The notes below the pieces were generated by a model. The model saw nothing but the letters and a program-made list of their open reading frames with translations, was not told where the DNA came from and ran no database searches. A stretch of DNA of 64,000 nt, taken from Escherichia coli. GTDB lineage: Bacteria > Pseudomonadota > Gammaproteobacteria > Enterobacterales > Enterobacteriaceae. The stretch lies in assembly GCF_013122565.1 (NCBI RefSeq), contig NZ_CP053258.1. One strand, given 5' to 3'. Made by a program: the position numbers and the translations under genes. Positions 1 to 57,706 of the stretch are shown in pieces; positions within the stretch are counted from its first letter, which is position 1, and each line of letters opens with the position of its first letter.

Positions 1-1202
1 CACATGGGCAAACCATCATACTCGGGATCCAGTCATACAATACCAGCGTGTTGGGTGGGATTGTGGCAGGGTTATTAGTCGCCAGCATGTATAAAAAGAT
101 CGTTAACTTACGTATTCCTGAATCATTAGGGTTTTATAGTGGCCCACGCCTGGTGCCTATCATTACACTGATTGTGATGAGTGGATTTGGTCTGATCATT
201 CCTTTTATCTGGCCGCCATTTTTCAATCTTTTCATGCTCATTGGTCACTGGATTTCAACTTCCGGTCCTGTTGGTTATTTCTTCTATGCTGTTGCCGAAC
301 GCGTGACGATACCTTTTGGCTTAAATCACTTGGTGACATCAGTTTTCCGCTTTACCCCAATCGGCGGATCGGCAGTGATTGGCGGTGAAGAGTATTACGG
401 CACCCTGAACATGTTTATGGCATACGTCAAAGAGAATGCGGTCATTCCGCTGGATTTGGCGGGGAAAATGGAGCAGGGCAAACTGATGATTCAGTATGGT
501 CTGGCTGGAGCCGCGCTGGCGATGTATCGCACTGCTCATGCTCAAAACAGAAGGGCTATCAAAGCATTGCTGATTTCCGGTGTGCTCACGGTAATTATTG
601 GCGGCGTCAGCGAGCCGATTGAATTTCTGTTCTTATTTGTCAGCCCGCTGTTGTTTGTCTTCCATGCCTTTATGAATGGATTGGCTAACATGGTTCTGCC
701 ATATATGGGCGTGAAGATGGGCTTTACTGGCGATCTGATTCAATTTATTAGCTTTGGTGTCTTACGTGGCACAAGAACGGGATGGCCATTAGCGGTATGT
801 GTTGAAGTGGCTTATTTCTTCATTTATTACTTTGTGTTCCGTTGGACCATTCTCAAATTTAACCTGATGACTGTAGGCCGTGAAGAGTCCAGTCCTGTCA
901 CGCTGAACGCTCACGAAGAAACTGCAATAGCTAACATCCCAGTTCATGATAAATCAGAGTTGCAGGCAGCGGAGCAAATGGTTAAGGCTCTGGGTGGTAA
1001 AGAAAATATTAAATCACTGGATAATTGTGTAACTCGTTTGCGTTTAACTATCGCGGATATGGGATTGATAGATGAGGCTGCAATAAAAAGGGCCGGAGGA
1101 ATTGCGGTTGTGAAACTTGATCAAAATACCTTACAAGTCATTATCGGTACAAAAGTCATCGCACTACGTCGGGATATGGATAACTACATGGGGATATGTT
1201 GA
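1..1202 (+). CDS. PTS glucose/maltose-family EIICB component (MalX/PtsG-like), N-terminally truncated by window edge
   Basis: Frame is open from position 3 with no stop before ORF 48..1202. EIIC-like motif GVSEPIEF and a C-terminal EIIB segment with the Cys motif NCVTRLR. Directly followed by a MalY-like gene, as in malXY. Confidence 0.85.
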   Translation, partial: HGQTIILGIQSYNTSVLGGIVAGLLVASMYKKIVNLRIPESLGFYSGPRLVPIITLIVMSGFGLIIPFIWPPFFNLFMLIGHWISTSGPVGYFFYAVAERVTIPFGLNHLVTSVFRFTPIGGSAVIGGEEYYGTLNMFMAYVKENAVIPLDLAGKMEQGKLMIQYGLAGAALAMYRTAHAQNRRAIKALLISGVLTVIIGGVSEPIEFLFLFVSPLLFVFHAFMNGLANMVLPYMGVKMGFTGDLIQFISFGVLRGTRTGWPLAVCVEVAYFFIYYFVFRWTILKFNLMTVGREESSPVTLNAHEETAIANIPVHDKSELQAAEQMVKALGGKENIKSLDNCVTRLRLTIADMGLIDEAAIKRAGGIAVVKLDQNTLQVIIGTKVIALRRDMDNYMGIC

Positions 1203-2410
1203 TGGATATTTTTAATACCTCAATTTCTCGTAAAGGAACATATTGCACACAATGGGACTTTTGTGAAGACAGATTTGGTGTAAAAGATGTATTACCATTC
1301 TCTATTTCAGATATGGATCTTCCGATACCGGAAGCTATCATCAGAACATTAAAAAAACGTCTGGAACACCCGATTTTAGGGTACAGTCGTTGGCAGCATG
1401 ATGACTATCTGAATTCGATAGTCAATTGGTATCATCAACAATATAAAACAGAGATTCAACCAGAATGGATCACCTATAGCCCAAGCGTGATGTATTCAAT
1501 ATCTAAGGCAATAGAAATATTGACATTGAATGGAGATAATATTCTCATTTTCACGCCTGTTTATAACGCATTTTATGATGTGATTAAGCATAATGGTCGA
1601 AACATGCTAACAACCTCTTTGATGAAAGAAAATGGGAGAGGCTACGTTATCAACTGGCAAGACTTTGAGCTTAAAATTAAAAGCGCGAAGATGGTGTTAT
1701 TATGTAATCCTCATAACCCGACAGGAACGGTCTGGTCGGAAGACGATCTTCACAGAATCGCAGCATGCTGTGCAAGGCATAATATTTGGTTATGTTCAGA
1801 TGAAATACATAGTGATTTTGTTTTTAATCATAGTTTCACGTCAGCGCTAACAATAAAAGATGACAAAGTGGTGGTGTTTAATTCGATTTCGAAAACATTT
1901 AATGTTCCTGCGCTAACCGGATCATATATGATTTCAACTGACGATAATTTTAATCATAAGTTCAGAACGATATCGAGGTATCGCGATTTTGTAAACTCCC
2001 CATCAGTACTGAATGTAATTGCGACCATTGTTGCCTATAATGAATGTGAAGAATGGTTAAAGTCATTAAAGGTACATATTGCCTCTAACATTCAATTTAC
2101 CTTGCAGTATTTAAATGAAAATATTCCGGAATTGATCGTATGGCCAGCTGAGGGCTGCTATTTTTCGTGGGTTGATTGCTCGGCCCTTGGTTATCCCTTT
2201 GATAAATTTTACCGTCGATTAATTAACGAAGGGAGAGTAGGTATTATGGCGGGGCATGTTTATGGTACTGAAGGAGAGGGCTATCTGCGTCTTAATCTGG
2301 CCTGCAGTCGAGAAAAATTATATATGGGGCTTGCGCGCCTTGCGAGTGTAATTAAAAATATTAATCAGGAAAAAGAAAATGAACAATACGGATCTTATCC
2401 ATCTTATTAA
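1196..2410 (+). CDS. PLP-dependent C-S lyase / aminotransferase, MalY/PatB family
   Basis: 404 aa. Collinear with K-12 MalY from memory: CTQWD, LPFSISDMD, LLCNPHNPTG, SDEIH, FNVPALTG. Start overlaps the PTS stop. Confidence 0.85.
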   Translation: MLMDIFNTSISRKGTYCTQWDFCEDRFGVKDVLPFSISDMDLPIPEAIIRTLKKRLEHPILGYSRWQHDDYLNSIVNWYHQQYKTEIQPEWITYSPSVMYSISKAIEILTLNGDNILIFTPVYNAFYDVIKHNGRNMLTTSLMKENGRGYVINWQDFELKIKSAKMVLLCNPHNPTGTVWSEDDLHRIAACCARHNIWLCSDEIHSDFVFNHSFTSALTIKDDKVVVFNSISKTFNVPALTGSYMISTDDNFNHKFRTISRYRDFVNSPSVLNVIATIVAYNECEEWLKSLKVHIASNIQFTLQYLNENIPELIVWPAEGCYFSWVDCSALGYPFDKFYRRLINEGRVGIMAGHVYGTEGEGYLRLNLACSREKLYMGLARLASVIKNINQEKENEQYGSYPSY

Positions 2411-2975
2411 ACATTTTATGCGTAACGAACATAAAGCAGTAGAAGAGGTTATTGATTCCCCCCTTTCGGAAGTCGCGAATTTAATTAAAATATTACAATC
2501 TTGCCAGGGAAAAGTTGTTTTTATTGGTGTTGGGAAATCTGGCATTATTGCCAGAAAACTTGCTGCAACATTTGCCAGCACCGGAACTCCCTCGTTTTTT
2601 GTTCACGGTACGGAAGCGGTACACGGCGACCTTGGGATGGTGGCGAAAGACGATGTTGTTATTCTTATTTCAAACAGTGGTGAGACGGCGGAAATCCTGG
2701 CGACACTGCCTAGTTTGAAAAAAATGGGTAATTATTTGATCTCTTTTACCCGCAGTCATCACTCATCGCTTGCGATAAGTTGTGATTTATCTGTTGAAAT
2801 CCCCGTCAAAAGTGAGGCGGATAATTTAGGTTTAGCACCGTCATGCTCGTCTACTGTTGTTCTGGTTGTTGGTGATGCGGTGGCGCTTGCACTCTCTGAA
2901 TTGAAAAAATTTACTCGTGCTGATTTCGGCTTATATCATCCAGGAGGTGCACTCGGCATTAAAGCAAATTCATAA
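2379..2975 (+). CDS. Single-SIS-domain sugar-phosphate isomerase (arabinose-5-phosphate isomerase-like, no CBS domains)
   Basis: 198 aa. Matches the KdsD/GutQ N-terminal SIS domain: GVGKSG, ATFASTGTPSFFVH, HGDLGMV, ISNSGET, HPGGALG. Lacks the C-terminal CBS pair. Confidence 0.8.
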   Translation: MNNTDLIHLIKHFMRNEHKAVEEVIDSPLSEVANLIKILQSCQGKVVFIGVGKSGIIARKLAATFASTGTPSFFVHGTEAVHGDLGMVAKDDVVILISNSGETAEILATLPSLKKMGNYLISFTRSHHSSLAISCDLSVEIPVKSEADNLGLAPSCSSTVVLVVGDAVALALSELKKFTRADFGLYHPGGALGIKANS

Positions 2976-3037
2976 TTTCAAAGTATAAATACAGTAACCG
3001 GTCACGCCATCTTTTGGGGTGGCGTTCATTGAAGTGA

Positions 3038-3994
3038 GTGTCAGCTATGAAAAATGTTCTGGTCACCGTCCCCAGCTTTTCAGCACGCTGTGTTTCCGCC
3101 AGCAAGTTGCTAAGAGAGAATAATTTTAACCTTATTATTAAGAATAATGTGGAGCATCTGCTTAAATCAGAATCCACTGCATTACGAGAATCTATTTGCG
3201 CGGTCATCGCCGGAAAAGATTGTTACCAGGCGGACACGCTATCATTGCTGCCTGGTGTGAGAATAATATCGAGATTCGGGACGGGGATAGATAATATTGA
3301 TCTTCGTGCAGCACAACAATCCGGTATTGTAGTCAATAATGCGGTTGGGATTAATTCAAATGCTGTCGCGGAATTTATCATTGGACTTATCTTCGCGAGC
3401 ATGAGAAATATTCCTGGCAGCTATCATGCGATGCAAAATGGCTACTGGGGTGAGTCGCATGGCTATGAATTACAAGGCAAACGGATTGGCCTGGTTGGCT
3501 ACGGCAATATAGGTAAAACCCTGGCAAAAAGGTTATCCGGTTTTGATGTTGAGCTTTTAGCTTATGACAAACAACCCGATTATCAGGTTGCTGACAAAGT
3601 TGGAGTTCAGTTTGTATCAATTGAAGATATCTTTATGCAGTCGCATGTCATCATTGTTCTTTTGCCTTTTTCTCCTGAGCTGGAGAACTTCATTAGTCAT
3701 AAATATTTGTCGATGATGCGCAATGGTGCTCTAATCATCAATGCCGCAAGGGGAAAGTTGCTGGATGAGGGCGCTTTACTACAGGTGATTGAAGAACGAA
3801 ATGTGTTTGCGGCGCTGGATGTGTTTAGCTCTGAACCGTTGGCGCAATTTAGCCCACTGCTACATGCCAAAAATATCATTACAACGCCGCATATTGCGGC
3901 CGCCACCGTTGAGTCATACCAGCAAACCGGTACACACGTTGCCCAGTCGATAATTGATTACTTCGCAGGAAGGGAGATAAAAAACGTGTTGTGA
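3038..3994 (+). CDS. D-isomer-specific 2-hydroxyacid dehydrogenase, NAD-binding
   Basis: 318 aa. Rossmann GxGxxG (GLVGYGNIGKTLAKRL) and the TPHIAAAT catalytic-region motif. Track start is GTG at 3038; an ATG at 3047 is an alternative. Confidence 0.8.
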   Translation: MSAMKNVLVTVPSFSARCVSASKLLRENNFNLIIKNNVEHLLKSESTALRESICAVIAGKDCYQADTLSLLPGVRIISRFGTGIDNIDLRAAQQSGIVVNNAVGINSNAVAEFIIGLIFASMRNIPGSYHAMQNGYWGESHGYELQGKRIGLVGYGNIGKTLAKRLSGFDVELLAYDKQPDYQVADKVGVQFVSIEDIFMQSHVIIVLLPFSPELENFISHKYLSMMRNGALIINAARGKLLDEGALLQVIEERNVFAALDVFSSEPLAQFSPLLHAKNIITTPHIAAATVESYQQTGTHVAQSIIDYFAGREIKNVL

Positions 3995-46153: not shown

Positions 46154-46490
46154 TTAAACATTTATAAGTGTTATAAATGGGTGGAACCTGTAAAGAATTC
46201 CACTCATTTATATTGTTTGTCGCCTCTGAAAACCCCTCTTTTTTGCCCATCCTTGACTAATCATTATCATTCTCTACAAATTCTGTGGCGTTAATTTTTC
46301 GCTGGAGTGAAAATTATTGCGGTAAAGTTTGGTAGATTTTAGTTTGAATAGAGTTATTTTAAATATTTATCTTTTTAATCAATGGATTAAGTGCTCTTTA
46401 ACATAATGGATGTGTTGTTTGTGTGATCCTGTAAAGTTGTTAGATTGTGACTGGCTTAAAAAATCATTAATTAATAATAGGTTATGTTTA
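46154..46490 (+). promoter_or_regulatory. AT-rich CRISPR leader for the mini-array
   Basis: About 340 bp of AT-rich sequence immediately 5' of the first repeat. The distal repeat is degenerate, so this is the leader side. Confidence 0.55.
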
Positions 46491-46702
46491 GAGTTCCCCG
46501 CGCCAGCGGGGATAAACCGGCGATTATAGCGGACTTTCAAGAGAACAGTCTGAGTTCCCCGCGCCAGCGGGGATAAACCGTGGAAAATCACCGACAATAT
46601 TCGACATGGAGAGAGTTCCCCGCGCCAGCGAGGATAAACCGTTATCGGTCATCAACTATAGCGCGTATTTACTAAGTTCCCCGTTCCAACACGAATAATC
46701 CG
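46491..46702 (+). CRISPR. Type I-E CRISPR mini-array (CRISPR2-like): 3 intact repeats, 1 degenerate terminal repeat, 3 spacers of 32 bp
   Basis: Repeats gagttccccgcgccagcggggataaaccg at 46491, 46552 and 46613 (third has one mismatch). Degenerate repeat 46674..46702. Phase confirmed by the antisense artefact ORF 46379..46597. Confidence 0.95.
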
Positions 46703-46767
46703 ATAATATCGACGATACCAACCTAATATTATCAAATGTTAAAGGTTCTAATTTAAGAGGAAATTTA

Positions 46768-47031
46768 ATGTCTACGTTAATGGAAAAAGAATCTCTCCTG
46801 AATGGCGTGAGTCAAAATATTGCATTTTTATCAAATGTATCTGAAATGGTTTACAACTCTCAGAATGAAGAGTTGCAGTATGAAATATATGAGCTGGTGA
46901 GTTATAAAGATTATCTATACTCAACAGACCATGAACTTGTTGATTTTCAAGAGGGAGTATTACGATTTCAACAAATTAGAACAAAATACAGGCAAGAGCT
47001 AAAAGAACTCGGTTATCCTGTAGGTAATTAA
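46768..47031 (+). CDS. Hypothetical protein (87 aa, acidic, AT-rich codon usage)
   Basis: Intact ORF with SD aagagg 9 nt upstream. No homolog I recognise. Occupies the position where K-12 has ygcE..ygcN. Confidence 0.5.
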   Translation: MSTLMEKESLLNGVSQNIAFLSNVSEMVYNSQNEELQYEIYELVSYKDYLYSTDHELVDFQEGVLRFQQIRTKYRQELKELGYPVGN

Positions 47032-47393
47032 GAAATATTGTCTTGATGGTGGGGAAACGTAATTTTTTATATTTTAAATATTAGATTAAAACAATAAATT
47101 AATATCATACTTTTATTTTATTCTCGAAAATGCCTAATTTCATTAAATACGTTGTCCTGTAAATGTAAACCGGGCATTTTTCCGCCCGGTCTCCCTCGAT
47201 TACGCTTCTGAGCAGGTCTCGAGCGAATTCACACTCTCCCGTTCAACTTGCATCACCAGTTGGTTAAATTCAGTCAAACTCTCGCTCATAATAATAATGT
47301 CGCAGTCGTCTTCCATGTCATGCCCCAGATATCCAGAACACAACACCCTAACATAGCGTTACTTAAGGGAAATTGACCGCCGACACACTCTTA

Positions 47394-48074: not shown

Positions 48075-49874
48075 ATGACGACACAGGTCCCACCTTCCGC
48101 GTTGCTTCCGTTGAACCCGGAGCAACTGGCACGCCTTCAGGCGGCCACGACCGATTTAACTCCCACCCAGCTTGCCTGGGTTTCTGGCTATTTCTGGGGC
48201 GTGCTCAATCAGCAGCCTGCTGCGCTTGCAGCGACGCCAGCGCCAGCCGCAGAAATGCCGGGTATAACTATTATCTCCGCCTCGCAAACTGGCAATGCGC
48301 GCCGGGTTGCTGAAGCATTACGCGATGATTTATTGACGGCAAAACTGAACGTTAAGCTGGTGAACGCGGGCGACTATAAATTCAAACAAATCGCCAGCGA
48401 AAAACTGCTCATCGTAGTGACGTCAACGCAAGGGGAAGGGGAACCGCCGGAAGAAGCCGTCGCGCTGCATAAGTTCCTGTTCTCCAAAAAAGCGCCAAAG
48501 CTGGAAAACACCGCGTTTGCCGTGTTTAGCCTCGGCGATAGCTCTTATGAATTTTTCTGCCAGTCCGGGAAAGATTTCGACAGCAAGCTGGCGGAACTGG
48601 GCGGTGAACGCCTGCTCGACCGTGTCGACGCCGACGTTGAATACCAGGCTGCTGCCAGCGAGTGGCGCGCCCGCGTGGTTGATGCGCTTAAATCGCGTGC
48701 GCCTGTCGCGGCACCTTCGCAATCCGTCTCTACTGGCGCGGTAAATGAAATCCACGCCAGCCCGTACAGCAAAGACGCGCCGCTGGTGGCGAGCCTCTCT
48801 GTTAACCAGAAAATTACCGGGCGTAACTCTGAAAAAGACGTTCGCCATATCGAAATTGACTTAGGTGACTCGGGCCTGCGTTACCAGCCGGGTGACGCGC
48901 TGGGCGTCTGGTATCAGAACGATCCGGCACTGGTGAAAGAACTTGTCGAACTGCTGTGGCTGAAAGGCGATGAACCTGTCACCGTCGAGGGCAAAACGTT
49001 GCCTCTGAACGAAGCGCTACAGTGGCACTTCGAACTGACCGTCAACACCGCCAACATTGTTGAGAATTACGCCACGCTTACCCGCAGTGAAACACTGCTG
49101 CCGCTGGTGGGCGATAAAGCGAAGTTACAGCATTACGCCGCGACCACGCCGATTGTCGACATGGTGCGTTTCTCTCCGGCGCAACTGGATGCCGAAGCGC
49201 TGATTAATCTGCTGCGTCCGCTGACCCCGCGCCTGTATTCCATCGCCTCCTCGCAGGCGGAAGTCGAGAACGAAGTACACGTCACCGTTGGTGTGGTGCG
49301 TTACGACGTGGAAGGCCGCGCCCGTGCCGGTGGTGCCTCCAGCTTCCTCGCGGATCGTGTGGAAGAAGAGGGCGAAGTCCGCGTATTTATCGAACATAAC
49401 GATAACTTCCGTTTGCCTGCTAACCCGGAAACCCCGGTGATTATGATTGGCCCCGGTACCGGCATCGCGCCGTTCCGTGCCTTTATGCAGCAACGCGCCG
49501 CCGACGAAGCGCCGGGTAAAAACTGGCTGTTCTTTGGCAACCCGCACTTTACGGAAGATTTCCTCTACCAGGTGGAGTGGCAGCGCTACGTCAAAGAGGG
49601 CGTGCTGACGCGTATCGATCTTGCCTGGTCGCGCGACCAAAAAGAAAAAGTTTATGTACAAGACAAACTGCGCGAACAGGGCGCGGAGCTGTGGCGCTGG
49701 ATCAATGACGGTGCCCACATTTATGTCTGCGGCGACGCTAATCGCATGGCGAAAGACGTTGAGCAGGCACTTCTGGAAGTGATTGCCGAATTTGGTGGCA
49801 TGGACACCGAAGCGGCGGATGAATTTTTAAGTGAGCTGCGCGTAGAGCGCCGTTATCAGCGAGATGTCTACTAA
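48075..49874 (+). CDS. cysJ: Sulfite reductase [NADPH] flavoprotein alpha subunit
   Basis: 599 aa. Confidence 0.97.
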
Positions 49875-51586
49875 TGAGCAAAAAACATCCAGGGCCTTTA
49901 GTGGTCGAAGGAAAACTGACAGACGCCGAGCGCATGAAGCTTGAAAGCAACTACCTGCGCGGCACCATTGCGGAAGATTTAAACGACGGTCTGACCGGCG
50001 GCTTTAAGGGCGACAACTTCCTGCTGATCCGCTTCCACGGCATGTATCAGCAGGATGACCGCGACATCCGCGCCGAACGTGCTGAACAGAAGCTGGAGCC
50101 GCGCCACGCGATGCTGCTTCGCTGTCGTCTGCCGGGTGGGGTGATTACCACTAAACAGTGGCAGGCGATCGACAAATTTGCCGGTGAAAACACCATCTAT
50201 GGCAGCATTCGCCTGACCAACCGCCAGACGTTTCAGTTCCACGGCATTCTGAAAAAGAACGTCAAACCGGTGCACCAGATGCTGCACTCGGTCGGTCTTG
50301 ATGCGCTGGCGACCGCTAACGACATGAACCGTAACGTACTCTGCACCTCGAACCCTTACGAGTCGCAGCTGCACGCGGAAGCATATGAATGGGCGAAGAA
50401 AATCTCTGAACATCTGCTGCCGCGTACTCGCGCGTATGCGGAGATCTGGCTCGATCAGGAAAAAGTCGCCACCACTGATGAAGAGCCGATCCTTGGTCAG
50501 ACCTACCTGCCGCGTAAGTTCAAAACCACGGTAGTGATCCCGCCGCAGAACGATATCGATCTGCACGCCAACGACATGAACTTCGTGGCGATCGCCGAAA
50601 ACGGCAAGCTGGTGGGCTTTAACCTGCTGGTGGGCGGTGGGCTTTCTATCGAACACGGCAACAAGAAAACCTACGCCCGCACGGCGAGTGAGTTTGGCTA
50701 TCTGCCGCTAGAACATACGCTGGCGGTGGCGGAAGCCGTCGTGACAACTCAGCGTGACTGGGGTAACCGAACCGATCGTAAAAATGCCAAAACCAAATAC
50801 ACGCTGGAGCGCGTGGGGGTTGAGACGTTTAAAGCGGAAGTGGAGCGTCGCGCGGGGATCAAATTTGAACCGATCCGTCCGTATGAGTTCACCGGACGCG
50901 GCGATCGTATTGGCTGGGTTAAGGGCATTGATGATAACTGGCACCTGACGCTGTTTATCGAAAATGGTCGCATCCTTGATTATCCGGGGCGTCCGCTGAA
51001 AACTGGCCTGCTGGAGATCGCGAAGATCCACAAAGGTGATTTCCGCATTACGGCGAACCAGAATTTGATCATCGCCGGTGTGCCGGAAAGTGAGAAAGCG
51101 AAGATCGAGAAGATCGCCAAAGAGAGCGGGTTAATGAATGCCGTCACGCCGCAGCGTGAAAACTCAATGGCCTGCGTGTCATTCCCGACTTGCCCGCTGG
51201 CGATGGCGGAAGCAGAGCGTTTCCTGCCGTCTTTTATCGACAACATCGACAATTTAATGGCGAAACATGGTGTCAGCGATGAGCATATCGTGATGCGTGT
51301 AACAGGCTGCCCGAACGGTTGTGGTCGCGCGATGCTGGCGGAAGTGGGCCTGGTGGGTAAAGCGCCGGGTCGCTACAACCTGCATCTTGGCGGCAACCGC
51401 ATTGGGACACGTATCCCACGGATGTATAAAGAAAACATCACCGAGCCGGAAATCCTGGCGTCGCTTGATGAACTGATAGGGCGCTGGGCGAAAGAGCGCG
51501 AAGCGGGTGAAGGCTTCGGCGACTTTACGGTGCGTGCGGGCATCATTCGCCCGGTGCTCGATCCGGCGCGCGATTTGTGGGATTAA
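49874..51586 (+). CDS. cysI: Sulfite reductase [NADPH] hemoprotein beta subunit
   Basis: 570 aa. Confidence 0.97.
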
Positions 51587-51601
51587 CCATCAGCCCGGTC
51601 T

Positions 51602-51639
51602 TGTAGGCCTGATAAGACGCGTGAGCGTCGCATCAGGCA
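51602..51639. repeat. REP element between cysI and cysH
   Basis: tgtaggcctgataagacgcgtgagcgtcgcatcaggca. Confidence 0.7.
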
Positions 51640-51659
51640 AGGCAAACAGTGAGGAATCT

Positions 51660-52394
51660 ATGTCCAAACTCGATCTAAACGCCCTGAACGAACTGCCGAA
51701 GGTAGATCGCATTCTGGCGCTGGCGGAAACTAACGCCCAACTGGAAAAACTGGATGCTGAAGGCCGCGTTGCCTGGGCGCTGGATAATCTGCCCGGTGAA
51801 TATGTACTTTCTTCCAGCTTTGGTATTCAGGCGGCGGTGAGCCTGCATCTGGTGAATCAGATTCGGCCGGATATTCCAGTGATCCTCACCGATACCGGTT
51901 ATCTGTTCCCGGAAACCTACCGCTTTATTGACGAGTTAACGGACAAACTCAAGCTCAACCTGAAAGTGTACCGTGCTACCGAAAGCGCCGCCTGGCAGGA
52001 AGCACGCTACGGCAAACTGTGGGAGCAGGGCGTTGAAGGCATTGAAAAGTACAATGACATCAACAAAGTCGAACCGATGAACCGGGCGCTGAAAGAACTG
52101 AATGCGCAAACGTGGTTTGCTGGCCTGCGCCGTGAACAATCCGGCAGCCGCGCCAATTTACCGGTGCTGGCAATTCAGCGTGGCGTATTTAAAGTACTGC
52201 CGATTATCGATTGGGATAACCGAACGATATATCAGTATCTGCAAAAGCATGGCCTGAAATATCACCCATTATGGGACGAAGGATATTTATCGGTCGGTGA
52301 TACCCATACAACCCGTAAATGGGAACCCGGCATGGCGGAAGAAGAAACACGTTTCTTTGGTTTAAAAAGGGAGTGTGGGTTACACGAAGGGTAA
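51660..52394 (+). CDS. cysH: Phosphoadenosine phosphosulfate (PAPS) reductase
   Basis: 244 aa from [17 protein letters not shown]. The track ORF begins 51 codons upstream, inside the REP. Confidence 0.95.
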
Positions 52395-52658
52395 ATATTG
52401 CCGGATAAATTAAACGCCTCTGTCAGAAATGATGGGGGCGTTTTTATTTTGCGAGCAGCATTCCTGATTTTAAACGTGAACGCCGCTGGAAGAATTATCA
52501 GGTATAGAATGGCGTCGGGTGCTTGAGGCTGTCTGGCGTTAAGCATTCGCGAGGTTCCAGATGGACAAAAGCCCCAGGCGATATTTCTATCAACCTGAGG
52601 CTTACGTTCGAACCCAAACAATTCGAATGTTAGTCTCTTCTTTGCAGGGAGGCAAGAC

Positions 52659-52811
52659 ATGCTGACAAAATATGCCCTTGTGGCAATCATCGTACTGTGT
52701 TGTACAGTACTGGGATTCACGCTGATGGTAGGCGACTCGTTGTGTGAGTTGAGTATCAGAGAACGTGGTATGGAGTTTAAGGCAGTTCTCGCTTACGAAT
52801 CGAAGAAGTAG
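52659..52811 (+). CDS. Hok/Gef-family type I toxin (50 aa; below ORF-track cutoff)
   Basis: Translates to [50 protein letters not shown]. One TM helix and a conserved C-terminal SLCE...AYES.K block as in plasmid R1 Hok (from memory). SD agggagg 7 nt upstream. An overlapping upstream 34-codon ORF (52561..52665) ends 7 nt into hok, like a mok reading frame. Confidence 0.8.
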
Positions 52812-52814
52812 CCA

Positions 52815-52876
52815 CCACGCGGGGGTAAAACCCCGCGTACTGAATTGTGATGGTTTGGTCTCCTGCACCCTTTTTT
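52815..52876 (+). terminator. Structured 3' region and terminator of the hok transcript
   Basis: Hairpin acgcgggg-gtaaaa-ccccgcgt, then a T6 run at 52871..52876. Confidence 0.45.
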
Positions 52877-52879
52877 AAT

Positions 52880-53048
52880 TTATATTATTTATGTGAGTAT
52901 TATGCCTATGTTTATTATTTATATATATTACGGATGAAAATCATTTAATTATTCACAATGTAAATATTTTATTGAAAGATATATGTCACAGATAATTTTT
53001 AATATGTGCGTAAATATCCTTTAAGTTTTACTGAAGGATAAAAATATT
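52880..53048 (+). promoter_or_regulatory. AT-rich cas3 promoter region
   Basis: About 170 bp of very AT-rich sequence directly upstream of the cas3 start, typical of a nucleoid-protein-silenced cas promoter. Promoter elements not individually assigned. Confidence 0.4.
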
Positions 53049-54392
53049 GTGACTTTCTTTGATTTCTGGGGAAAAACCCGACGTGGCGAGAAAGAAGGGG
53101 GCGACGGCTATCACCTTCTTTGCTGGCATTCGCTGGATGTGGCCGCGATGGGCTATTTAATGGTTAAAAGAAATTGCTTCGGGCTGGCTGACTATTTTCG
53201 TCAATTAGGGATTTCTGACAAGGAACAGGCAGCTCAATTTTTCGCCTGGTTGCTGTGCTGGCACGATATTGGAAAATTTGCCCGCTCTTTTCAACAACTT
53301 TACCTGCCCCCTGAATTCAAGATTCAGGAAGGTGCCAGAAAAAATTACGAAAAAATCTCTCATTCAACGCTGGGCTACTGGTTGTGGAATCATTATTTAA
53401 GTGAATGTCAGGAGTTACTTCCTTCATCTTCGCTCTCTCCGCGCAAACTTAGGCGAGTGATAGAAATGTGGATGCCCGTGACGACAGGGCATCATGGTCG
53501 GCCCCCTGATCGTATGGATGAATTGGATAATTTTCTGCCTGAAGACAAAGCTGCAGCACGAGATTTTCTCCTTGAAATCAAACCACTGTTTCCGCTCATA
53601 GAGATCCCCGCATTCTGGGATGATGATGAGGGCATTGAACTTATAAAACACCTTTCCTGGTATATCTCTGCAACCGTCGTGCTCGCAGACTGGACGGGTT
53701 CGTCAACGCGATTTTTTCCACGCGTCGCACACCCAATGGATATTAAAGGTTACTGGCAGAAAACTTTAGTTCAGGCTCAAAATGCCTTAACCGTCTTTCC
53801 TCTAAAAGCAAAAGTCGCGCCTTTCACCGGAATTAATACGCTGTTTCCTTTTATTGAGAATCCGACACCGTTACAGCAAAAGGTGCTGGATCTGGATATC
53901 AGCCAGCCAGGGCCACAGTTATTTATTCTGGAAGATGTGACTGGCGCAGGTAAAACGGAAGCGGCGCTTATCCTGGCGCACAGGTTGATGGCTGCGGGTA
54001 AAGCGCAGGGTTTGTTTTTTGGCCTGCCAACAATGGCAACGGCCAATGCCATGTATGATCGGCTCGTCAAAACCTGGCTTTCTTTCTATTCGCCAGAATC
54101 TCGCCCCAGCCTGGTGCTGGCACACAGTGCCCGCACATTAATGGACCGCTTTAATGAATCACTCTGGTCCGGTGATTTAATCGGGTCAGAAGAACCGGAT
54201 GAACAAGCTTTCAGCCAGGGTTGTGCGGCCTGGTTTGCCGACAGTAACAAGAAGGCGTTGCTGGCTGAAATTGGCGTCGGCACCCTGGATCAGGCGATGA
54301 TGGCAGTGATGCCGTTTAAACATAATAATCTGCGGCTTCTGGGGCTGAGTAACAAAATCGTGTTCCCCGCGCCAGCGGGGATAAACCGATGA
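53049..54392 (+). pseudogene. cas3: Truncated cas3 (type I-E; HD nuclease domain and start of helicase domain only), fused to the CRISPR array
   Basis: 447-aa ORF with a GTG start. HD motif WHDIGKF and Walker A TGAGKTEAA. Collinear with the N-terminal half of K-12 Cas3 (888 aa, from memory). The frame runs through CRISPR repeat 1 (...NKIV|FPAPAGINR) and stops in spacer 1. Confidence 0.88.
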
Positions 54393-56647
54393 ATATTTGC
54401 GAATATTCGGCAGAAAGCGGGTGTTCCCCGCGCCAGCGGGGATAAACCGAGGTTGCGGCACAAATTGAGGTTGTCGCAAATGTGTTCCCCGCGCCAGCGG
54501 GGATAAACCGCCGACGCAGCAGCGGCAGCAGCGGCAGCAGCGGTGTTCCCCGCGCCAGCGGGGATAAACCGTGGATCAGTGCCGCGTTCTCTCTCCGTGT
54601 AATGTGTTCCCCGCGCCAGCGGGGATAAACCGATCGAGACGGGTACGCGTAAAGCCGAGCTGGCGTGTTCCCCGCGCCAGCGGGGATAAACCGCGATCGG
54701 TTAATTCTTCTACCTGCCTTTGCAGGTGTTCCCCGCGCCAGCGGGGATAAACCGCCCGCAATGCATTCGGGCAGTTCCTTGCCGGGGTGTTCCCCGCGCC
54801 AGCGGGGATAAACCGGAGATTGAGCCAGACGCCCGCCAGGTGTTACTGTGTTCCCCGCGCCAGCGGGGATAAACCGGAAGTAACACACCCAACCCAGGTT
54901 GCGCCAGAGTGTTCCCCGCGCCAGCGGGGATAAACCGCCTGTTTGAGCAGGCGCGAATGAACCGGACCAGTGTTCCCCGCGCCAGCGGGGATAAACCGTC
55001 AGGTAAGCCAGTGTTAGGGGCAATATAGCAGTGTTCCCCGCGCCAGCGGGGATAAACCGTCATCGGCTCGTTATTTGTAGCCAGCACTACGGTGTTCCCC
55101 GCGCCAGCGGGGATAAACCGCTTTATCAGATGGTAAAGGTGAATCAATATGAGTGTTCCCCGCGCCAGCGGGGATAAACCGATACCCCAGCGTTTCGTTA
55201 TATGACGGAAGATGTGTTCCCCGCGCCAGCGGGGATAAACCGTGCAACCAGGACGGCAGGACGCATCGCCAGATGTGTTCCCCGCGCCAGCGGGGATAAA
55301 CCGCACGTTATTATCCGATATTCACCGATAAGCGTGTGTTCCCCGCGCCAGCGGGGATAAACCGTCTGGGCGTAAACAGTCGGATAAATCGCGGGTGTGT
55401 TCCCCGCGCCAGCGGGGATAAACCGGCGGCGTGTGGGGTAACAATCAGGGAGAGAAAGTGTTCCCCGCGCCAGCGGGGATAAACCGGATAAATACAGTAT
55501 ATTCCCGCGCTCTGCTGGCGTGTTCCCCGCGCCAGCGGGGATAAACCGTAGATTTTGTCCGGCTCAGGTGCGCCGATGGTGTGTTCCCCGCGCCAGCGGG
55601 GATAAACCGATCGAGTACAACAAAAAATATACTGAGTGAGTGTGTTCCCCGCGCCAGCGGGGATAAACCGCTGTTTGCTCCTGCTGCTCATTTAGTGATT
55701 TAGTGTTCCCCGCGCCAGCGGGGATAAACCGCCTGTTCTTTTTTAGTCAACTTAACCATGCTCGTGTTCCCCGCGCCAGCGGGGATAAACCGTCTTTTTC
55801 GAGACTTGCAGCAACGCTCTGAAAGTGTTCCCCGCGCCAGCGGGGATAAACCGATCGAGTAGTTTTGAGGGTTGGTGAATTCAGGGTGTTCCCCGCGCCA
55901 GCGGGGATAAACCGCTTAATAAATGGACTTAAGCGCCCAGTATTGGGTGTTCCCCGCGCCAGCGGGGATAAACCGGGGAGGGCGAGCCGCCGTAGGTGCG
56001 GTGAGGGGTGTTCCCCGCGCCAGCGGGGATAAACCGACGCAGAAACTGGTTGAAATAGTTTACGGTGAGTGTTCCCCGCGCCAGCGGGGATAAACCGGCA
56101 GTAAATTATTTGACCTCGTTGATAATCCCGTGTTCCCCGCGCCAGCGGGGATAAACCGGTGGCGGTGTGATTGTGGGACTTATTGCCATCGTGTTCCCCG
56201 CGCCAGCGGGGATAAACCGGGCCTTTTCAGCAGATTAACCGCCGCGATTGCGTGTTCCCCGCGCCAGCGGGGATAAACCGAGAGATTTATATTCTTTCAA
56301 ACCGGATTATATCGTGTTCCCCGCGCCAGCGGGGATAAACCGCTTCAAGAATTTTTAAACGCTGGCTTCAAAATGTGTTCCCCGCGCCAGCGGGGATAAA
56401 CCGTCCCACGCGTGCCAGATGGCGCGTTTGATGGCGTGTTCCCCGCGCCAGCGGGGATAAACCGATGATAACGGCAAAGGGTACGCTACGTACAACGTGT
56501 TCCCCGCGCCAGCGGGGTTAAACTGTGATCCAGTGAGTACCGATCCGGGAACAACCGGTGTTCCTCGCATCAGCGGGGATAAACCGGGTGCACTGGATGC
56601 GATGATGGATATCACTTGGCGTTCCCCCGCCCCTGCGGTAGAACTCC
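54360..56647 (+). CRISPR. Type I-E CRISPR array: 37 repeat-spacer units plus a highly degenerate terminal repeat; no leader, no adjacent cas operon
   Basis: 29-bp repeat gtgttccccgcgccagcggggataaaccg with period 61. Spacers are 32 bp except one of 33 bp (55487..55519). Repeat phase verified against the antisense artefact ORFs ([10 protein letters not shown] / VYPRWRGEH / GLSPLARGT). Degenerate repeats at 56497, 56558 and 56619 mark the leader-distal end, next to iap. Confidence 0.97.
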
Positions 56648-56668: not shown

Positions 56669-57706
56669 TCAAGACGCCTTCGCCAACTCCTTCACCAGAG
56701 GTAGCATTATCCGCATAACGTCACGGCAGCGACGTTCTATTCTTCCAGGAAGTGCCTTATCAATATGCTGTTGATTATCCAGTCTTACGTCATGCCAGCT
56801 ATTTCCCGCAGGGAATGCGGCTGTTTTTGCGCGTTGCTGATAACCATCCTTATTCCCAAGATTCCAGTTAGTCGCTTCCACCGAAAGTACAGCAATGCCC
56901 GCTTTGTCGAATATTTCGGCGTCATTACAACATCCAGTGCCTTTCGGATAATTTTTATTCAAACCCGGATTGGTCGTTGCGGCAATTCCATGACTACGCG
57001 CAATTGCCAGCGCCCTGTCGCGCGTTAATTTCCTTACTGCTTCAGGGGTTTTTACACCGCTGTTGAAATACAATTTATCGCCAACAATTAAGTTATCGAG
57101 ATTAATCACCAGCAGCGTATTTTTCTTTTCGGTGTCACTCATCCGCTTGAGTAAATTCTCAGCGCCTAATTTTCCTTCCTCTTCGCCGCTGGTCGCCACA
57201 AATCGAATACCATACTCGGTAGGCGTATTTTTCAGGCGTTCTGCCAGTTCCAGCATGACACCTAAACCTGCGGCGTTATCATCTATTCCTTGTAACGTCA
57301 GTCCGCCGAGATTGGCATCGGCGTCAGCATCGCTCAGCGGGGCGTAAGTATCCAGATGCGCCATAATGATGATCTGCTGCGGCGCTTTGCCTTCATGAGC
57401 GGCAATCACCGTACTTCCCGTCACGTTATGCCAGCTCTTACGATTATCGCGGGCGGTATAAATATATCGACTATTAAATGTCCGAATATCACTGCGATAA
57501 CCCATTTGCTGAAACTGTTGGCGAATATAATCGGCAGATAACATTTCTGCAGGAGTTCCGGTCATGCGTCCCGGAAAGAAAGTAGCAATATGTCGTGCCT
57601 GGGTATTAGCAAAATCGCCAGGTTTAGGTGACGAGGCGTGTACGGGGAGAATAAAGCATACGCCGAGCGCCAGGGCAGCGGTACGGTGGCGCAATGCGGA
57701 AAACAT
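56669..57706 (-). CDS. iap: Alkaline phosphatase isozyme conversion aminopeptidase Iap
   Basis: 345 aa, signal peptide, M28-type peptidase. Confidence 0.93.
   Translation of the reverse strand: MFSALRHRTAALALGVCFILPVHASSPKPGDFANTQARHIATFFPGRMTGTPAEMLSADYIRQQFQQMGYRSDIRTFNSRYIYTARDNRKSWHNVTGSTVIAAHEGKAPQQIIIMAHLDTYAPLSDADADANLGGLTLQGIDDNAAGLGVMLELAERLKNTPTEYGIRFVATSGEEEGKLGAENLLKRMSDTEKKNTLLVINLDNLIVGDKLYFNSGVKTPEAVRKLTRDRALAIARSHGIAATTNPGLNKNYPKGTGCCNDAEIFDKAGIAVLSVEATNWNLGNKDGYQQRAKTAAFPAGNSWHDVRLDNQQHIDKALPGRIERRCRDVMRIMLPLVKELAKAS

What the first reader, a model, noticed from the sequence alone, without database searches (positions are those of the whole stretch)
53049..56647. Orphan type I-E CRISPR array fused directly to a cas3 stump; the rest of the cas operon and the leader are missing
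The cas3 ORF (53049..54392) covers only about the N-terminal half of Cas3. Its frame runs straight into the first CRISPR repeat at 54360. In K-12 (from memory) the layout is cysH - cas3 - cse1 - cse2 - cas7 - cas5 - cas6e - cas1 - cas2 - leader - array - iap. Here a single deletion-like junction removes the 3' half of cas3, seven cas genes and the AT-rich leader, yet 37 spacer units remain. No Cascade, Cas1 or Cas2 gene is anywhere in the 64 kb. The array therefore cannot be processed or extended by locally encoded Cas proteins, and any transcription would come by read-through from the cas3 promoter.
Basis: partly seen in the sequence, partly recalled or inferred. Interest (0 to 1): 0.75.

Follow-up and report, generated by a model that had tools for sequence, protein, structure and literature searches.

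The report
Truncated cas3 joined to orphan CRISPR
An E. coli-type CRISPR immune locus lost half of cas3, seven other cas genes and its leader in one 7.3-kb deletion, stranding a 37-spacer array; loss of cas genes is ordinary, but the cut lies exactly where the system's own integrase inserts DNA, as in ten other independent cases.

Summary
Window 53049-54359 is the 5' half of a cas-E1-type cas3 (98% identical to E. coli MB06171). Homology stops at 54359, which is cas3 nt 1353 of 2700. Base 54360 is G1 of the first of 37 type I-E repeats. About 7.3 kb is missing: the cas3 3' half, casA-E, cas1, cas2 and the leader. No other cas gene or leader lies in the 64 kb. The locus is a decayed, cis-inactive remnant, and this kind of remnant is known (Geue 2017; several RefSeq pseudogenes). 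The new point is the junction. I mapped eleven independent cas3::array fusions: seven in E. coli including this one, two with Salmonella-type synteny, and two in another enterobacterial lineage. All join cas3 exactly to repeat base 1. No microhomology was seen wherever an intact sequence allowed the check (one 1-nt ambiguity). Only 1 of 11 has the acquisition PAM. Three cas3-to-cas1/cas2 deletions use 1-3 nt microhomology instead. The join matches the first strand transfer of the Cas1-Cas2 integrase. I infer that the adaptation machinery joined a cas3 3' end to a repeat and so deleted its own operon. This is not shown experimentally. The locus itself is ordinary; the recurrent signature is moderately interesting.

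The parts
52517..52811 (+). hok/sok type I toxin-antitoxin next to cysH; a marker of the cas-E1 arrangement
   Evidence: Rfam sok RF01794 at 52517-52674, 113 bits. The ORF at 52659-52811 matches HokA at E=2.6e-14, which is below the curated cutoff. RefSeq annotates a Hok/Gef gene at the same position in MB06171.
52812..53048 (+). AT-rich intergenic region upstream of cas3. It is presumed to hold the cas3 promoter (inferred). AAGGA lies 9-10 nt before the GTG start.
   Evidence: Read directly from the sequence. The simple promoter scan found nothing above chance here.
53049..54359 (+). cas3 stump of 437 codons. It has a complete HD nuclease domain, helicase motif I and about one third of the helicase core. 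It is cut just before motif II (DExH).
   Evidence: NCBIfam TIGR01596 covers 1-178 of 178 positions; TIGR01587 covers 2-126 of 358 and scores below its cutoff. dN/dS against MB06171 is 0.18 with 28 nt differences.
54359..54360 (+). Deletion junction: cas3 nt 1353 joined to G1 of a CRISPR repeat with no microhomology. The ORF runs on to a stop at 54390-54392.
   Evidence: In intact cas3 the next bases are CTGCTGG, whereas here they are GTGTTCC.
54360..56647 (+). Leaderless CRISPR2.1 array with 37 repeats, 37 spacers and a degenerate terminal repeat
   Evidence: The terminal spacer is shared with 9 E. coli loci. Spacer 33 (56343-56374) matches pMT1/pHCM2-type plasmids next to an ATG PAM. Spacer 23 (55732-55763) matches an Enterobacter plasmid.
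56669..57706 (-). iap, the normal trailer-side neighbour of the array
   Evidence: It aligns with the annotated iap of MB06171.
46380..46700 (+). CRISPR2.3 (CRISPR-II) mini-array that still has its AT-rich leader. It has 3 repeats (46491-46641), one more spacer and a degenerate repeat.
   Evidence: It is collinear with the queE-CRISPR region of MB06171.

Best explanation
WHAT IT IS (shown, about 0.97). This is a decayed type I-E (cas-E1) locus of an E. coli-like genome. One deletion of about 7.3 kb removed cas3 nt 1354-2700, casA, casB, cas7, cas5, cas6e, cas1, cas2 and the leader. It joined the 5' half of cas3 directly to a repeat of the CRISPR2.1 array.

CONSEQUENCES (inferred from established type I-E biology). 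Without a leader and Cas1-Cas2 the array cannot gain spacers. Without Cas6e and Cascade no crRNA is made from any transcript. Without the Cas3 helicase there is no interference. The array can be transcribed only as a 3' extension of the H-NS-silenced cas3 message. It could work again only if a compatible I-E module arrived in trans.

HOW THE JUNCTION AROSE (inferred, about 0.6-0.7). The + strand of cas3 ends in a 3' end ligated to the 5' end (G1) of a repeat. That is exactly the product of the first, leader-side strand transfer of the Cas1-Cas2 integrase. I propose that the integrase used a chromosomal + strand 3'-OH inside cas3 as its nucleophile. This end could be a nascent leading-strand end at a stalled fork, or an end left by Cas3 or RecBCD processing. 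The integrase attacked the leader-repeat border in cis. Replication of the recombinant strand then fixed a deletion of everything in between, including cas1-cas2 themselves. I prefer this one-step route over prior acquisition of a cas3-derived spacer followed by spacer-protospacer recombination.
For: The breakpoint was mapped to the base. No other cas gene or leader is in the window.

Eleven independent cas3::array fusions all start the array at repeat base 1. The E. coli cases lie at cas3 nt 1196, 1353 (this window), 1470, 1569, 1671, 2046 and 2168. Two loci have cysH-sopD-cas3 synteny (L025, L026), and two lie in another cysJIH-cas3-iap lineage (L027, L028/L029). Wherever an intact reference exists there is no microhomology; one case has a 1-nt ambiguity. 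Under uniform placement within the 61-bp repeat-spacer unit the chance of this is below 1e-14.

The controls behave differently. Three cas3-to-cas1/cas2 deletions that keep the leader have 1-3 nt microhomology and ordinary endpoints.

Only 1 of 11 junctions has AWG at the PAM position. By contrast 43 of 55 natural leader-A spacers have that PAM (PMC3737337). The non-PAM 3' end is the one integrated first at the leader-repeat border (review PMC10011333).

The PAM of spacer 33's protospacer confirms the array orientation. GC skew is positive on the + strand in all eight 8-kb bins. Forks therefore move from cas3 towards the array, and nascent leading-strand 3' ends have the required polarity.
Against: I know of no experiment showing that Cas1-Cas2 joins a chromosomal end in cis to make a deletion. 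The enzyme normally needs a short prespacer of defined geometry.

The window's leading spacers are unique among 5,426 genomes. I therefore could not show that the junction repeat was the leader-proximal one. In other lineages this test was inconclusive: stump spacer 1 corresponds to spacer 2 of 17, or to spacer 6-7, in intact relatives.

All eleven cas3::array fusions and the three mapped microhomology deletions (fourteen left ends) fall in the equivalent of cas3 nt 1084-2168. My model does not predict this clustering.

The survey is incomplete, because the casA 3' half, casB, cas7, cas5 and the cas6e 5' part were not tiled. Transcription and RNA processing were not measured.
Confidence: 0.62

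Rival explanations
1. Two-step self-spacer route. Cas1-Cas2 first acquired an ordinary 32-nt spacer from the sense strand of cas3. Later, recombination between that spacer and its protospacer 5-7 kb upstream deleted the interval. This also leaves cas3 sequence running exactly up to the next repeat.
For: It gives the same junction geometry. Self DNA is acquired in naive adaptation, and the region upstream of the array is a reported protospacer hotspot (PMC10011333). One junction (GF131) has ATG at the PAM position.
Against: Only 1 of 11 junctions has AWG, against about 78% in natural leader-A spacers. If autoimmunity selected for the deletion, PAM-bearing cases should be enriched rather than depleted (PMC3737337). 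None of 139 distinct spacers matches the cas-E1 operon better than shuffled controls. No fusion has its left end in cas1 or the 5' part of cas2, which lie nearest the array, or in the first ~900 nt of casA. The exact repeat-plus-pseudo-spacer ancestor is absent from JGI metagenomes. The route needs two rare events and only 32 bp of homology.
Confidence: 0.2
2. Ordinary illegitimate recombination or slippage, or repair after Cas3 self-targeting without the integrase. On this view the endpoint at the repeat border is a coincidence.
For: Microhomology deletions do occur in this operon. Database proteins include cas3::cas7, cas3::cas1 and cas3::cse1 fusions and internal cas3 deletions.
Against: Eleven of eleven independent array-side endpoints lie at repeat base 1. 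None lies in a spacer, inside a repeat or in the leader, and there is no microhomology. The palindrome is internal to the repeat (bases 6-23), so hairpin-guided slippage would not end at base 1.
Confidence: 0.06
3. Assembly artefact: the cas operon was collapsed out of the assembly.
For: Arrays are repetitive and are often misassembled. The exact junction was not found in GTDB representatives, JGI metagenomes or 5,426 complete E. coli genomes.
Against: Collapse needs shared sequence, and cas3 nt 1353 shares none with the leader or the repeat. Equivalent junctions exist in many complete genomes, and one was described independently (PMC5359238).
Confidence: 0.02
4. The stump plus array is a maintained functional unit. 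It might be a stand-alone HD nuclease, or an anti-cas array that blocks re-acquisition of I-E systems in the way E. coli orphan I-F arrays do.
For: The stump ORF is intact and has a Shine-Dalgarno-like AAGGA. dN/dS against intact cas3 is 0.18. Thirty-five of 37 repeats are perfect.
Against: No spacer matches the cas genes. Sister stumps carry frameshifts, stop codons and an IS1 insertion. Their arrays keep shrinking. The low dN/dS can simply date from before the deletion.
Confidence: 0.05

Closest known systems
cas3(Gly683)::CRISPR2-repeat deletion of atypical EPEC O156:H8, e.g. strain 13E0767 (Geue et al. 2017, PMC5359238)
   Same: The locus and the cas-E1 type are the same. The deletion runs from inside cas3 to the edge of a CRISPR2.1 repeat, removes casA-cas2 and the leader, and leaves an orphan array. 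I re-mapped it here as the nt-2046 junction.
   Different: The breakpoint differs (nt 2046 against 1353). That lineage has 6-13 spacers against 37 here. It is widespread across serotypes, whereas the window's junction is unique in the collections searched. The paper proposed no mechanism.
CRISPR-I arrangements of E. coli lacking cas-E genes (arrangements B-G and minor arrangements of Almendros et al. 2014, PMC3903273)
   Same: They show loss of the cas-E1 genes and the L1 leader between cysH and iap, with hok/sok retained and a CRISPR2.1 remnant left behind.
   Different: Those losses are attributed to recombination between IS elements. Here there is no IS, and a clean gene::repeat join retains half of cas3.
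Half-site intermediate of normal spacer integration by E. coli Cas1-Cas2 with IHF (reviewed in PMC10011333)
   Same: The chemistry and the position are the same: a DNA 3'-OH is joined to the 5' end of the repeat on the leader-side strand, with no PAM requirement at that end.
   Different: The normal substrate is a free prespacer of about 33 bp, and a second strand transfer duplicates the repeat. Here the donor would be the chromosome itself, and the outcome is a deletion rather than an insertion.
Orphan I-F CRISPR4 arrays of E. coli with anti-cas spacers (Almendros et al. 2016, cited in PMC5972030)
   Same: An array persists in E. coli after loss of its cognate cas genes.
   Different: Those arrays keep a leader, are expressed, and carry spacers against I-F cas genes. 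This array has no leader and no anti-cas spacers.

Membership tests
Complete type I-E CRISPR-Cas system | Full-length Cas3 with HD nuclease and SF2 helicase | tested here: not met
   Only residues corresponding to 15-451 of 899 are present. The HD model is complete, but the helicase core covers 2-126 of 358 positions and scores below its cutoff.
Complete type I-E CRISPR-Cas system | Cascade genes casA/cse1, casB/cse2, cas7, cas5, cas6e | tested here: not met
   tblastn of the MB06171 proteins against the 64-kb window gives no hits. The rest of the genome is not available.
Complete type I-E CRISPR-Cas system | Adaptation genes cas1 and cas2, and an AT-rich leader next to the first repeat | tested here: not met
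   There are no cas1 or cas2 hits and no significant L1 leader match. cas3 sequence abuts repeat 1.
Complete type I-E CRISPR-Cas system | Array of 29-nt I-E repeats with spacers of about 32 nt | tested here: met
   There are 37 repeats matching GTGTTCCCCGCGCCAGCGGGGATAAACCG, with spacers of 32 or 33 nt. No Rfam family reached its gathering score on the array.
E. coli CRISPR-I locus, cas-E1 variant (Almendros 2014) | Position between cysH and iap, with hok/sok beside cysH | tested here: met
   The order is cysJIH, hok/sok, cas3', array, iap, cysDNC.
E. coli CRISPR-I locus, cas-E1 variant (Almendros 2014) | cas3 of the E1 (non-K-12) sequence type | tested here: met
   The region is 98% identical at the nucleotide level to the cas3 region of MB06171, whose operon is of the hok-associated type. 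More than 2,700 E. coli genomes match it at 92-97%.
E. coli CRISPR-I locus, cas-E1 variant (Almendros 2014) | Conserved trailer-end spacer and degenerate last repeat of CRISPR2.1 | tested here: met
   Spacer 37 is shared with 9 fetched E. coli loci.
Orphan CRISPR array | Array with no cognate cas genes in the genome | tested here: inconclusive
   This holds for the 64-kb window. The whole genome cannot be checked with these tools.
Anti-cas orphan arrays (E. coli I-F CRISPR4 type) | Spacers matching the cognate cas genes | tested here: not met
   The best spacer-to-operon match has 10 mismatches, the same as shuffled controls.
Cas1-Cas2 integration products | Donor 3' end joined precisely to the 5' base of a repeat on the leader-side strand | tested here: met
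   The junction is at 54359/54360, and ten other independent junctions are the same.
Cas1-Cas2 integration products | Dependence on Cas1 catalysis and IHF, and use of the leader-proximal repeat | not testable with these tools
   This needs experiments. The comparative test for leader-proximity was inconclusive.

The most novel reading that the evidence does not exclude
Type I-E systems of Enterobacteriaceae are recurrently destroyed by their own adaptation enzyme. Cas1-Cas2 captures a chromosomal 3' end in the helicase-coding part of cas3 and transfers it to the repeat border. This excises the whole operon and the leader in one step and creates orphan arrays. The captured end could be a stalled nascent leading strand, or an end made by Cas3 during self-priming. 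On this reading the cas3 stump-repeat junction is a scar of integrase 'suicide'. The clustering of left ends in cas3 nt ~1084-2168 would then report where such ends arise.
Probability: 0.45. Interest if true: 0.7.

Novelty: new member of a known kind. Interest (0 to 1): 0.42.

Why it matters
The locus itself only adds one more E. coli lineage whose I-E immunity is dead. This is useful for annotation, because the stump should be called a pseudogene and the array an orphan. The wider value lies in the pattern it led to. How CRISPR-Cas systems are lost, and where orphan arrays come from, is usually put down to IS elements or random deletion. A base-precise, PAM-independent, microhomology-free junction recurs in at least three enterobacterial lineages. 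It points to a specific enzymatic route that can be tested directly: PCR or deep sequencing for cas3::repeat junctions in strains with active or dead Cas1. If confirmed, it would show an intrinsic genomic cost of carrying an integrase next to its target site. It would also give a sequence scar by which such events can be counted in genome databases.

Tried and rejected
1. Exact-junction searches found nothing. These were two scans of GTDB species representatives and one scan of JGI metagenomes. No identical junction was found in 5,426 complete E. coli genomes, nor as a protein. The source lineage was therefore not found elsewhere.

2. A search for a putative ancestor carrying repeat plus cas3-derived spacer in metagenomes found nothing.

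3. I looked for a self-targeting spacer that could explain the deletion. Spacers from the window and from 20 other loci match the cas-E1 operon and the rest of the window only at chance level.

4. A canonical PAM at the junction pseudo-spacers is rejected: only 1 of 11 has it.

5. Chi-limited RecBCD resection from the array as the source of the cas3 ends does not fit. Correctly oriented Chi sites lie in cas5 and at cas3 nt 2531, on the array side of every breakpoint.

6. I tested whether the junction repeat was the leader-proximal one. The window's first spacers are unique, and other lineages gave ambiguous positions.

7. Tiling for fusions elsewhere found none in cas3 nt ~250-1140. For cas3 nt ~2250-2700, one search found only junctions upstream of nt 2250. 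None was found in the first ~900 nt of casA, or in cas1 and the 5' part of cas2.

8. The promoter and terminator scan gave chance-level matches only.

9. Spacers against phages gave no near-identical protospacers. The 'phage' hits were records that contain arrays.

10. My first impression of a non-coli Escherichia, based on 95-96% identity over 24 kb, was withdrawn. The low figure comes from array alignments, and cysJIH-cas3 is 98.1% identical to E. coli.
Full report
**Observation.** The window carries cysJ, cysI and cysH (48075-52394) and a hok/sok module. Rfam finds sok at 52517-52674, and the hok ORF lies at 52659-52811. An AT-rich spacer region follows, and then an ORF at 53049-54392. A repeat search finds 37 copies of GTGTTCCCCGCGCCAGCGGGGATAAACCG on the + strand from 54360 to 56586. 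Of these, 35 are identical and the last two have 2 and 3 mismatches. Spacers are 32 nt, or 33 nt in two cases. The array ends with a terminal spacer (56587-56618) and a degenerate last repeat (56619-56647), followed by iap on the minus strand at 56669-57706. Three more repeats lie at 46491-46641.

**Breakpoint.** I fetched an intact locus from E. coli MB06171 (L001). Its order is cysH, hok, cas3, casA, casB, cas7e, cas5e, cas6e, cas1e, cas2e, a 96-nt leader, the array, then iap. The window aligns to it at 98% from 52001 to exactly 54359. That position is cas3 nt 1353 of 2700, after codon 451 of 899. Intact cas3 continues CTGCTGGCTGATGAGATCCAC, which encodes LLADEIH, the DExH box. The window continues GTGTTCCCCGCG, so there is not one base of microhomology. 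About 7,320 bp are missing relative to MB06171.

**Stump protein.** The stump has 437 Cas3 codons (426/438 identical over residues 15-452 of MB06171 Cas3), followed by 10 codons read from repeat 1 and spacer 1. It contains a complete cas3_HD domain but only positions 2-126 of the 358-position helicase core model. tblastn with all eight MB06171 Cas proteins finds nothing else in the 64 kb, and the leader has no significant match. The flanks are E. coli-like: cysJIH-cas3 is 98.1% identical to MB06171. The lower identity came from alignments inside arrays.

The reading of a cas3 stump fused to an orphan, leaderless array is therefore supported. Two refinements apply. First, this is the cas-E1 (non-K-12) variant that goes with hok/sok (PMC3903273), not the K-12 variant. 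Second, a small CRISPR2.3 array with its own leader survives at 46.4-46.7 kb. Read-through transcription from the cas3 promoter is a reasonable inference. The scan's only terminator-like match inside the stump (53992-54008) is at chance level, 8 sites found against 5.6 expected, and the promoter-like matches are also at chance level. I could not test transcription.

**Is it known?** Yes, as a kind. RefSeq annotates cas3 pseudogenes 'missing C-terminus' immediately followed by a CRISPR feature in many complete E. coli genomes. Geue et al. [quoted passage not shown] Almendros et al. 2014 (PMC3903273) catalogued cas-less and partly deleted CRISPR-I arrangements and attributed them mostly to IS elements. 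The window's own junction is not present in 5,426 complete E. coli genomes. It is also absent from GTDB representatives, from JGI metagenomes and from the protein collection at more than 97% identity. It is a new instance of a known kind.

**The junction pattern in E. coli.** Mapping every stump I could find against intact cas3 gave independent junctions at cas3 nt 1196 (MFDS1016424, JML285) and 1353 (this window). Further junctions lie at 1470 (LHM10-1, AH04, XJ5.2), 1569 (STEC384) and 1671 (A37). The last two lie at 2046 (88-3493, 13E0767, 16F5M1D1, JNE23-001, F9792, F8111) and 2168 (GF131). In each case the next base is G1 of a perfect repeat. Two apparent 1-nt offsets are explained by allelic variation in cas3. 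For example, GF131 has the C that follows GCGTGA at the nt-2046 site.

**The pattern in other lineages.** A protein search with the stump returned Cas3 fragments whose C-termini are the repeat translated in each of the three frames: [10 protein letters not shown], [10 protein letters not shown] and xCSPRQRG*. The encoding contigs show four more independent junctions. Two are in loci with cysH-sopD-cas3 synteny, which I take to be Salmonella by inference. Two are in another cysJIH-cas3-iap lineage. All four are again exactly at G1. Where a longer relative serves as reference (L026 against L025, L028 against L027) there is no microhomology.

**Statistics and controls.** That makes eleven of eleven. 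Under uniform placement within a 61-bp repeat-spacer unit this has a probability below 1e-14. My detection used only alignment ends, so it would have found junctions in spacers, inside repeats or in the leader equally well. As a contrast, three deletions from cas3 into cas1 or cas2 that keep the leader (AR_0069, EC2001, G4/9) have ordinary ends with 1-3 nt of microhomology.

**What makes such a junction.** On the + strand a cas3 3' end is joined to the 5' end of a repeat. According to the established mechanism, this is the bond made by the first strand transfer of Cas1-Cas2. In that step the non-PAM 3'-OH attacks the leader-first-repeat border with the help of IHF (PMC10011333). Two routes use that chemistry.

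**Route A.** An ordinary spacer is acquired from the sense strand of cas3. The spacer then recombines with its protospacer.

**Route B.** The attacking 3'-OH belongs to the chromosome itself. One strand transfer then links cas3 to the repeat, and replication of that strand fixes the deletion.

**Evidence separating the two routes.**
- The triplet at the PAM position (-35..-33) is AWG in only 1 of 11 junctions. By contrast 43 of 55 natural spacers next to this leader type have that PAM (PMC3737337). If autoimmunity had selected the deletions, PAM-bearing cases should be enriched.
- The orientation assumption holds. The protospacer of spacer 33 in pMT1 is preceded by ATG.
- None of 139 distinct spacers resembles the cas-E1 operon beyond chance.
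- No fusions start in cas1 or the 5' part of cas2, which lie closest to the array, where self-acquisition is reported to peak. None starts in the first ~900 nt of casA.
- GC skew is positive on the + strand in all eight 8-kb bins. Forks therefore travel from cas3 towards the array, and nascent leading-strand ends have the polarity that route B needs.

I therefore favour route B. It remains an inference, and I know of no experiment showing it.

**Unexplained.** All left ends lie in the helicase-coding middle of cas3. These are the eleven fusions and the three microhomology deletions that I mapped, and they fall at the equivalent of nt 1084-2168. Tiling searches found none at nt ~250-1140 and none downstream of nt ~2250. 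Judged only from the fusion points in the protein sequences, several cas3::cas7, cas3::cas1 and cas3::cse1 fusions and internal cas3 deletions appear to break near the DYPWLTHVTK (nt ~1557-1620) and INGQLKRD (nt ~2037-2068) motifs. I did not map these at the DNA level. Chi sites do not explain the clustering. A local source of 3' ends is possible, such as fork pausing or Cas3 processing from a nearby target, but this is untested.

**Present function.** By established type I-E biology the array cannot be extended (no leader, Cas1 or Cas2). It cannot be processed (no Cas6e or Cascade) and cannot be used for interference (no Cas3 helicase). Sister stumps carry frameshifts, stop codons and an IS1 insertion. 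Their arrays continue to lose units by repeat-repeat recombination behind an unchanged junction. These points argue against a maintained function. In the window the stump is still an open frame (dN/dS 0.18 against MB06171) and 35 repeats are perfect. This is consistent with a fairly recent event but does not prove one. Two spacers have near-identical plasmid protospacers: spacer 33 in pMT1/pHCM2-type plasmids, and spacer 23 in an Enterobacter plasmid. None has a near-identical phage match. The array therefore records past encounters of a system that was once active.

**Verdict.** The added value is the recurrent, base-precise junction signature, which suggests that the integrase can delete its own operon.

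Noticed in passing
window 46380-47290: The CRISPR2.3 mini-array keeps its leader. Beyond 46641, homology to E. coli MB06171 is lost and resumes only at 47288 near queD. The rest of that array and about 12 kb (ygcE to ygcN) are replaced by a 646-bp AT-rich segment with an 87-aa ORF (46768-47031). Geue 2017 mentions a similar ~12-kb deletion starting from queD.
   Followed up: partly
window 54633-54664, 55610-55641, 55854-55885 (spacers 5, 21, 25): Three of the 37 spacers begin with ATCGAG, and two of them with ATCGAGTA. None of 129 spacers from other loci does. I estimate the chance expectation for a shared 6-mer prefix in three spacers at about 5e-4. They may come from a repeated element in one invader.
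   Followed up: partly
window 54511-54542 (spacer 3): This spacer is low-complexity, (GCAGCAGCG) repeated about three times, which is unusual for a spacer. Tandem Repeats Finder flags 54516-54543.
   Followed up: no
window 53004-53048: Relative to MB06171 the window has an A-to-G change in the annotated upstream ATG and a 1-bp insertion in a T run. This destroys the 14-codon N-terminal extension (MRKYPLSLLKDKNI) that PGAP annotates on many E1 Cas3 proteins. The GTG at 53049 has an AAGGA 9-10 nt upstream and aligns with the K-12 N-terminus as I recall it. It may be the true start in all strains.
   Followed up: partly
L008 3664, L010 5193 (cas2 at L001 20452-20461): Two independent cas3-to-cas2 deletions (AR_0069 and G4/9) have right ends only 9 bp apart in the 5' part of cas2.
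   Followed up: partly
proteins P0001, P0002, P0004, P0010 and P0026, compared with L003, L007-L010 and L025: From the protein sequences alone, cas3 breakpoints of many different rearrangements appear to recur near the DYPWLTHVTK and INGQLKRD motifs (about nt 1557-1620 and 2037-2068). The rearrangements are fusions to cas7, cas1, cse1, cas2 or a repeat, and internal deletions. The coordinates are my reading and were not mapped at the DNA level. The recurrence suggests break hotspots.
   Followed up: partly
L007, L012, L013 (nt-2046 lineage): Strains that share one cas3::repeat junction have different first spacers. For example, spacer 2 of L012 is spacer 1 of L007. Leaderless arrays therefore keep losing units by repeat-repeat recombination while the junction repeat is preserved.
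   Followed up: yes
window 56343-56374 (spacer 33): This spacer matches a hypothetical gene of Yersinia pestis pMT1, Salmonella pHCM2-like plasmids and related Citrobacter and Escherichia plasmids (31 of 32 nt at best), with an ATG PAM. More than 100 plasmid records match it.
   Followed up: yes
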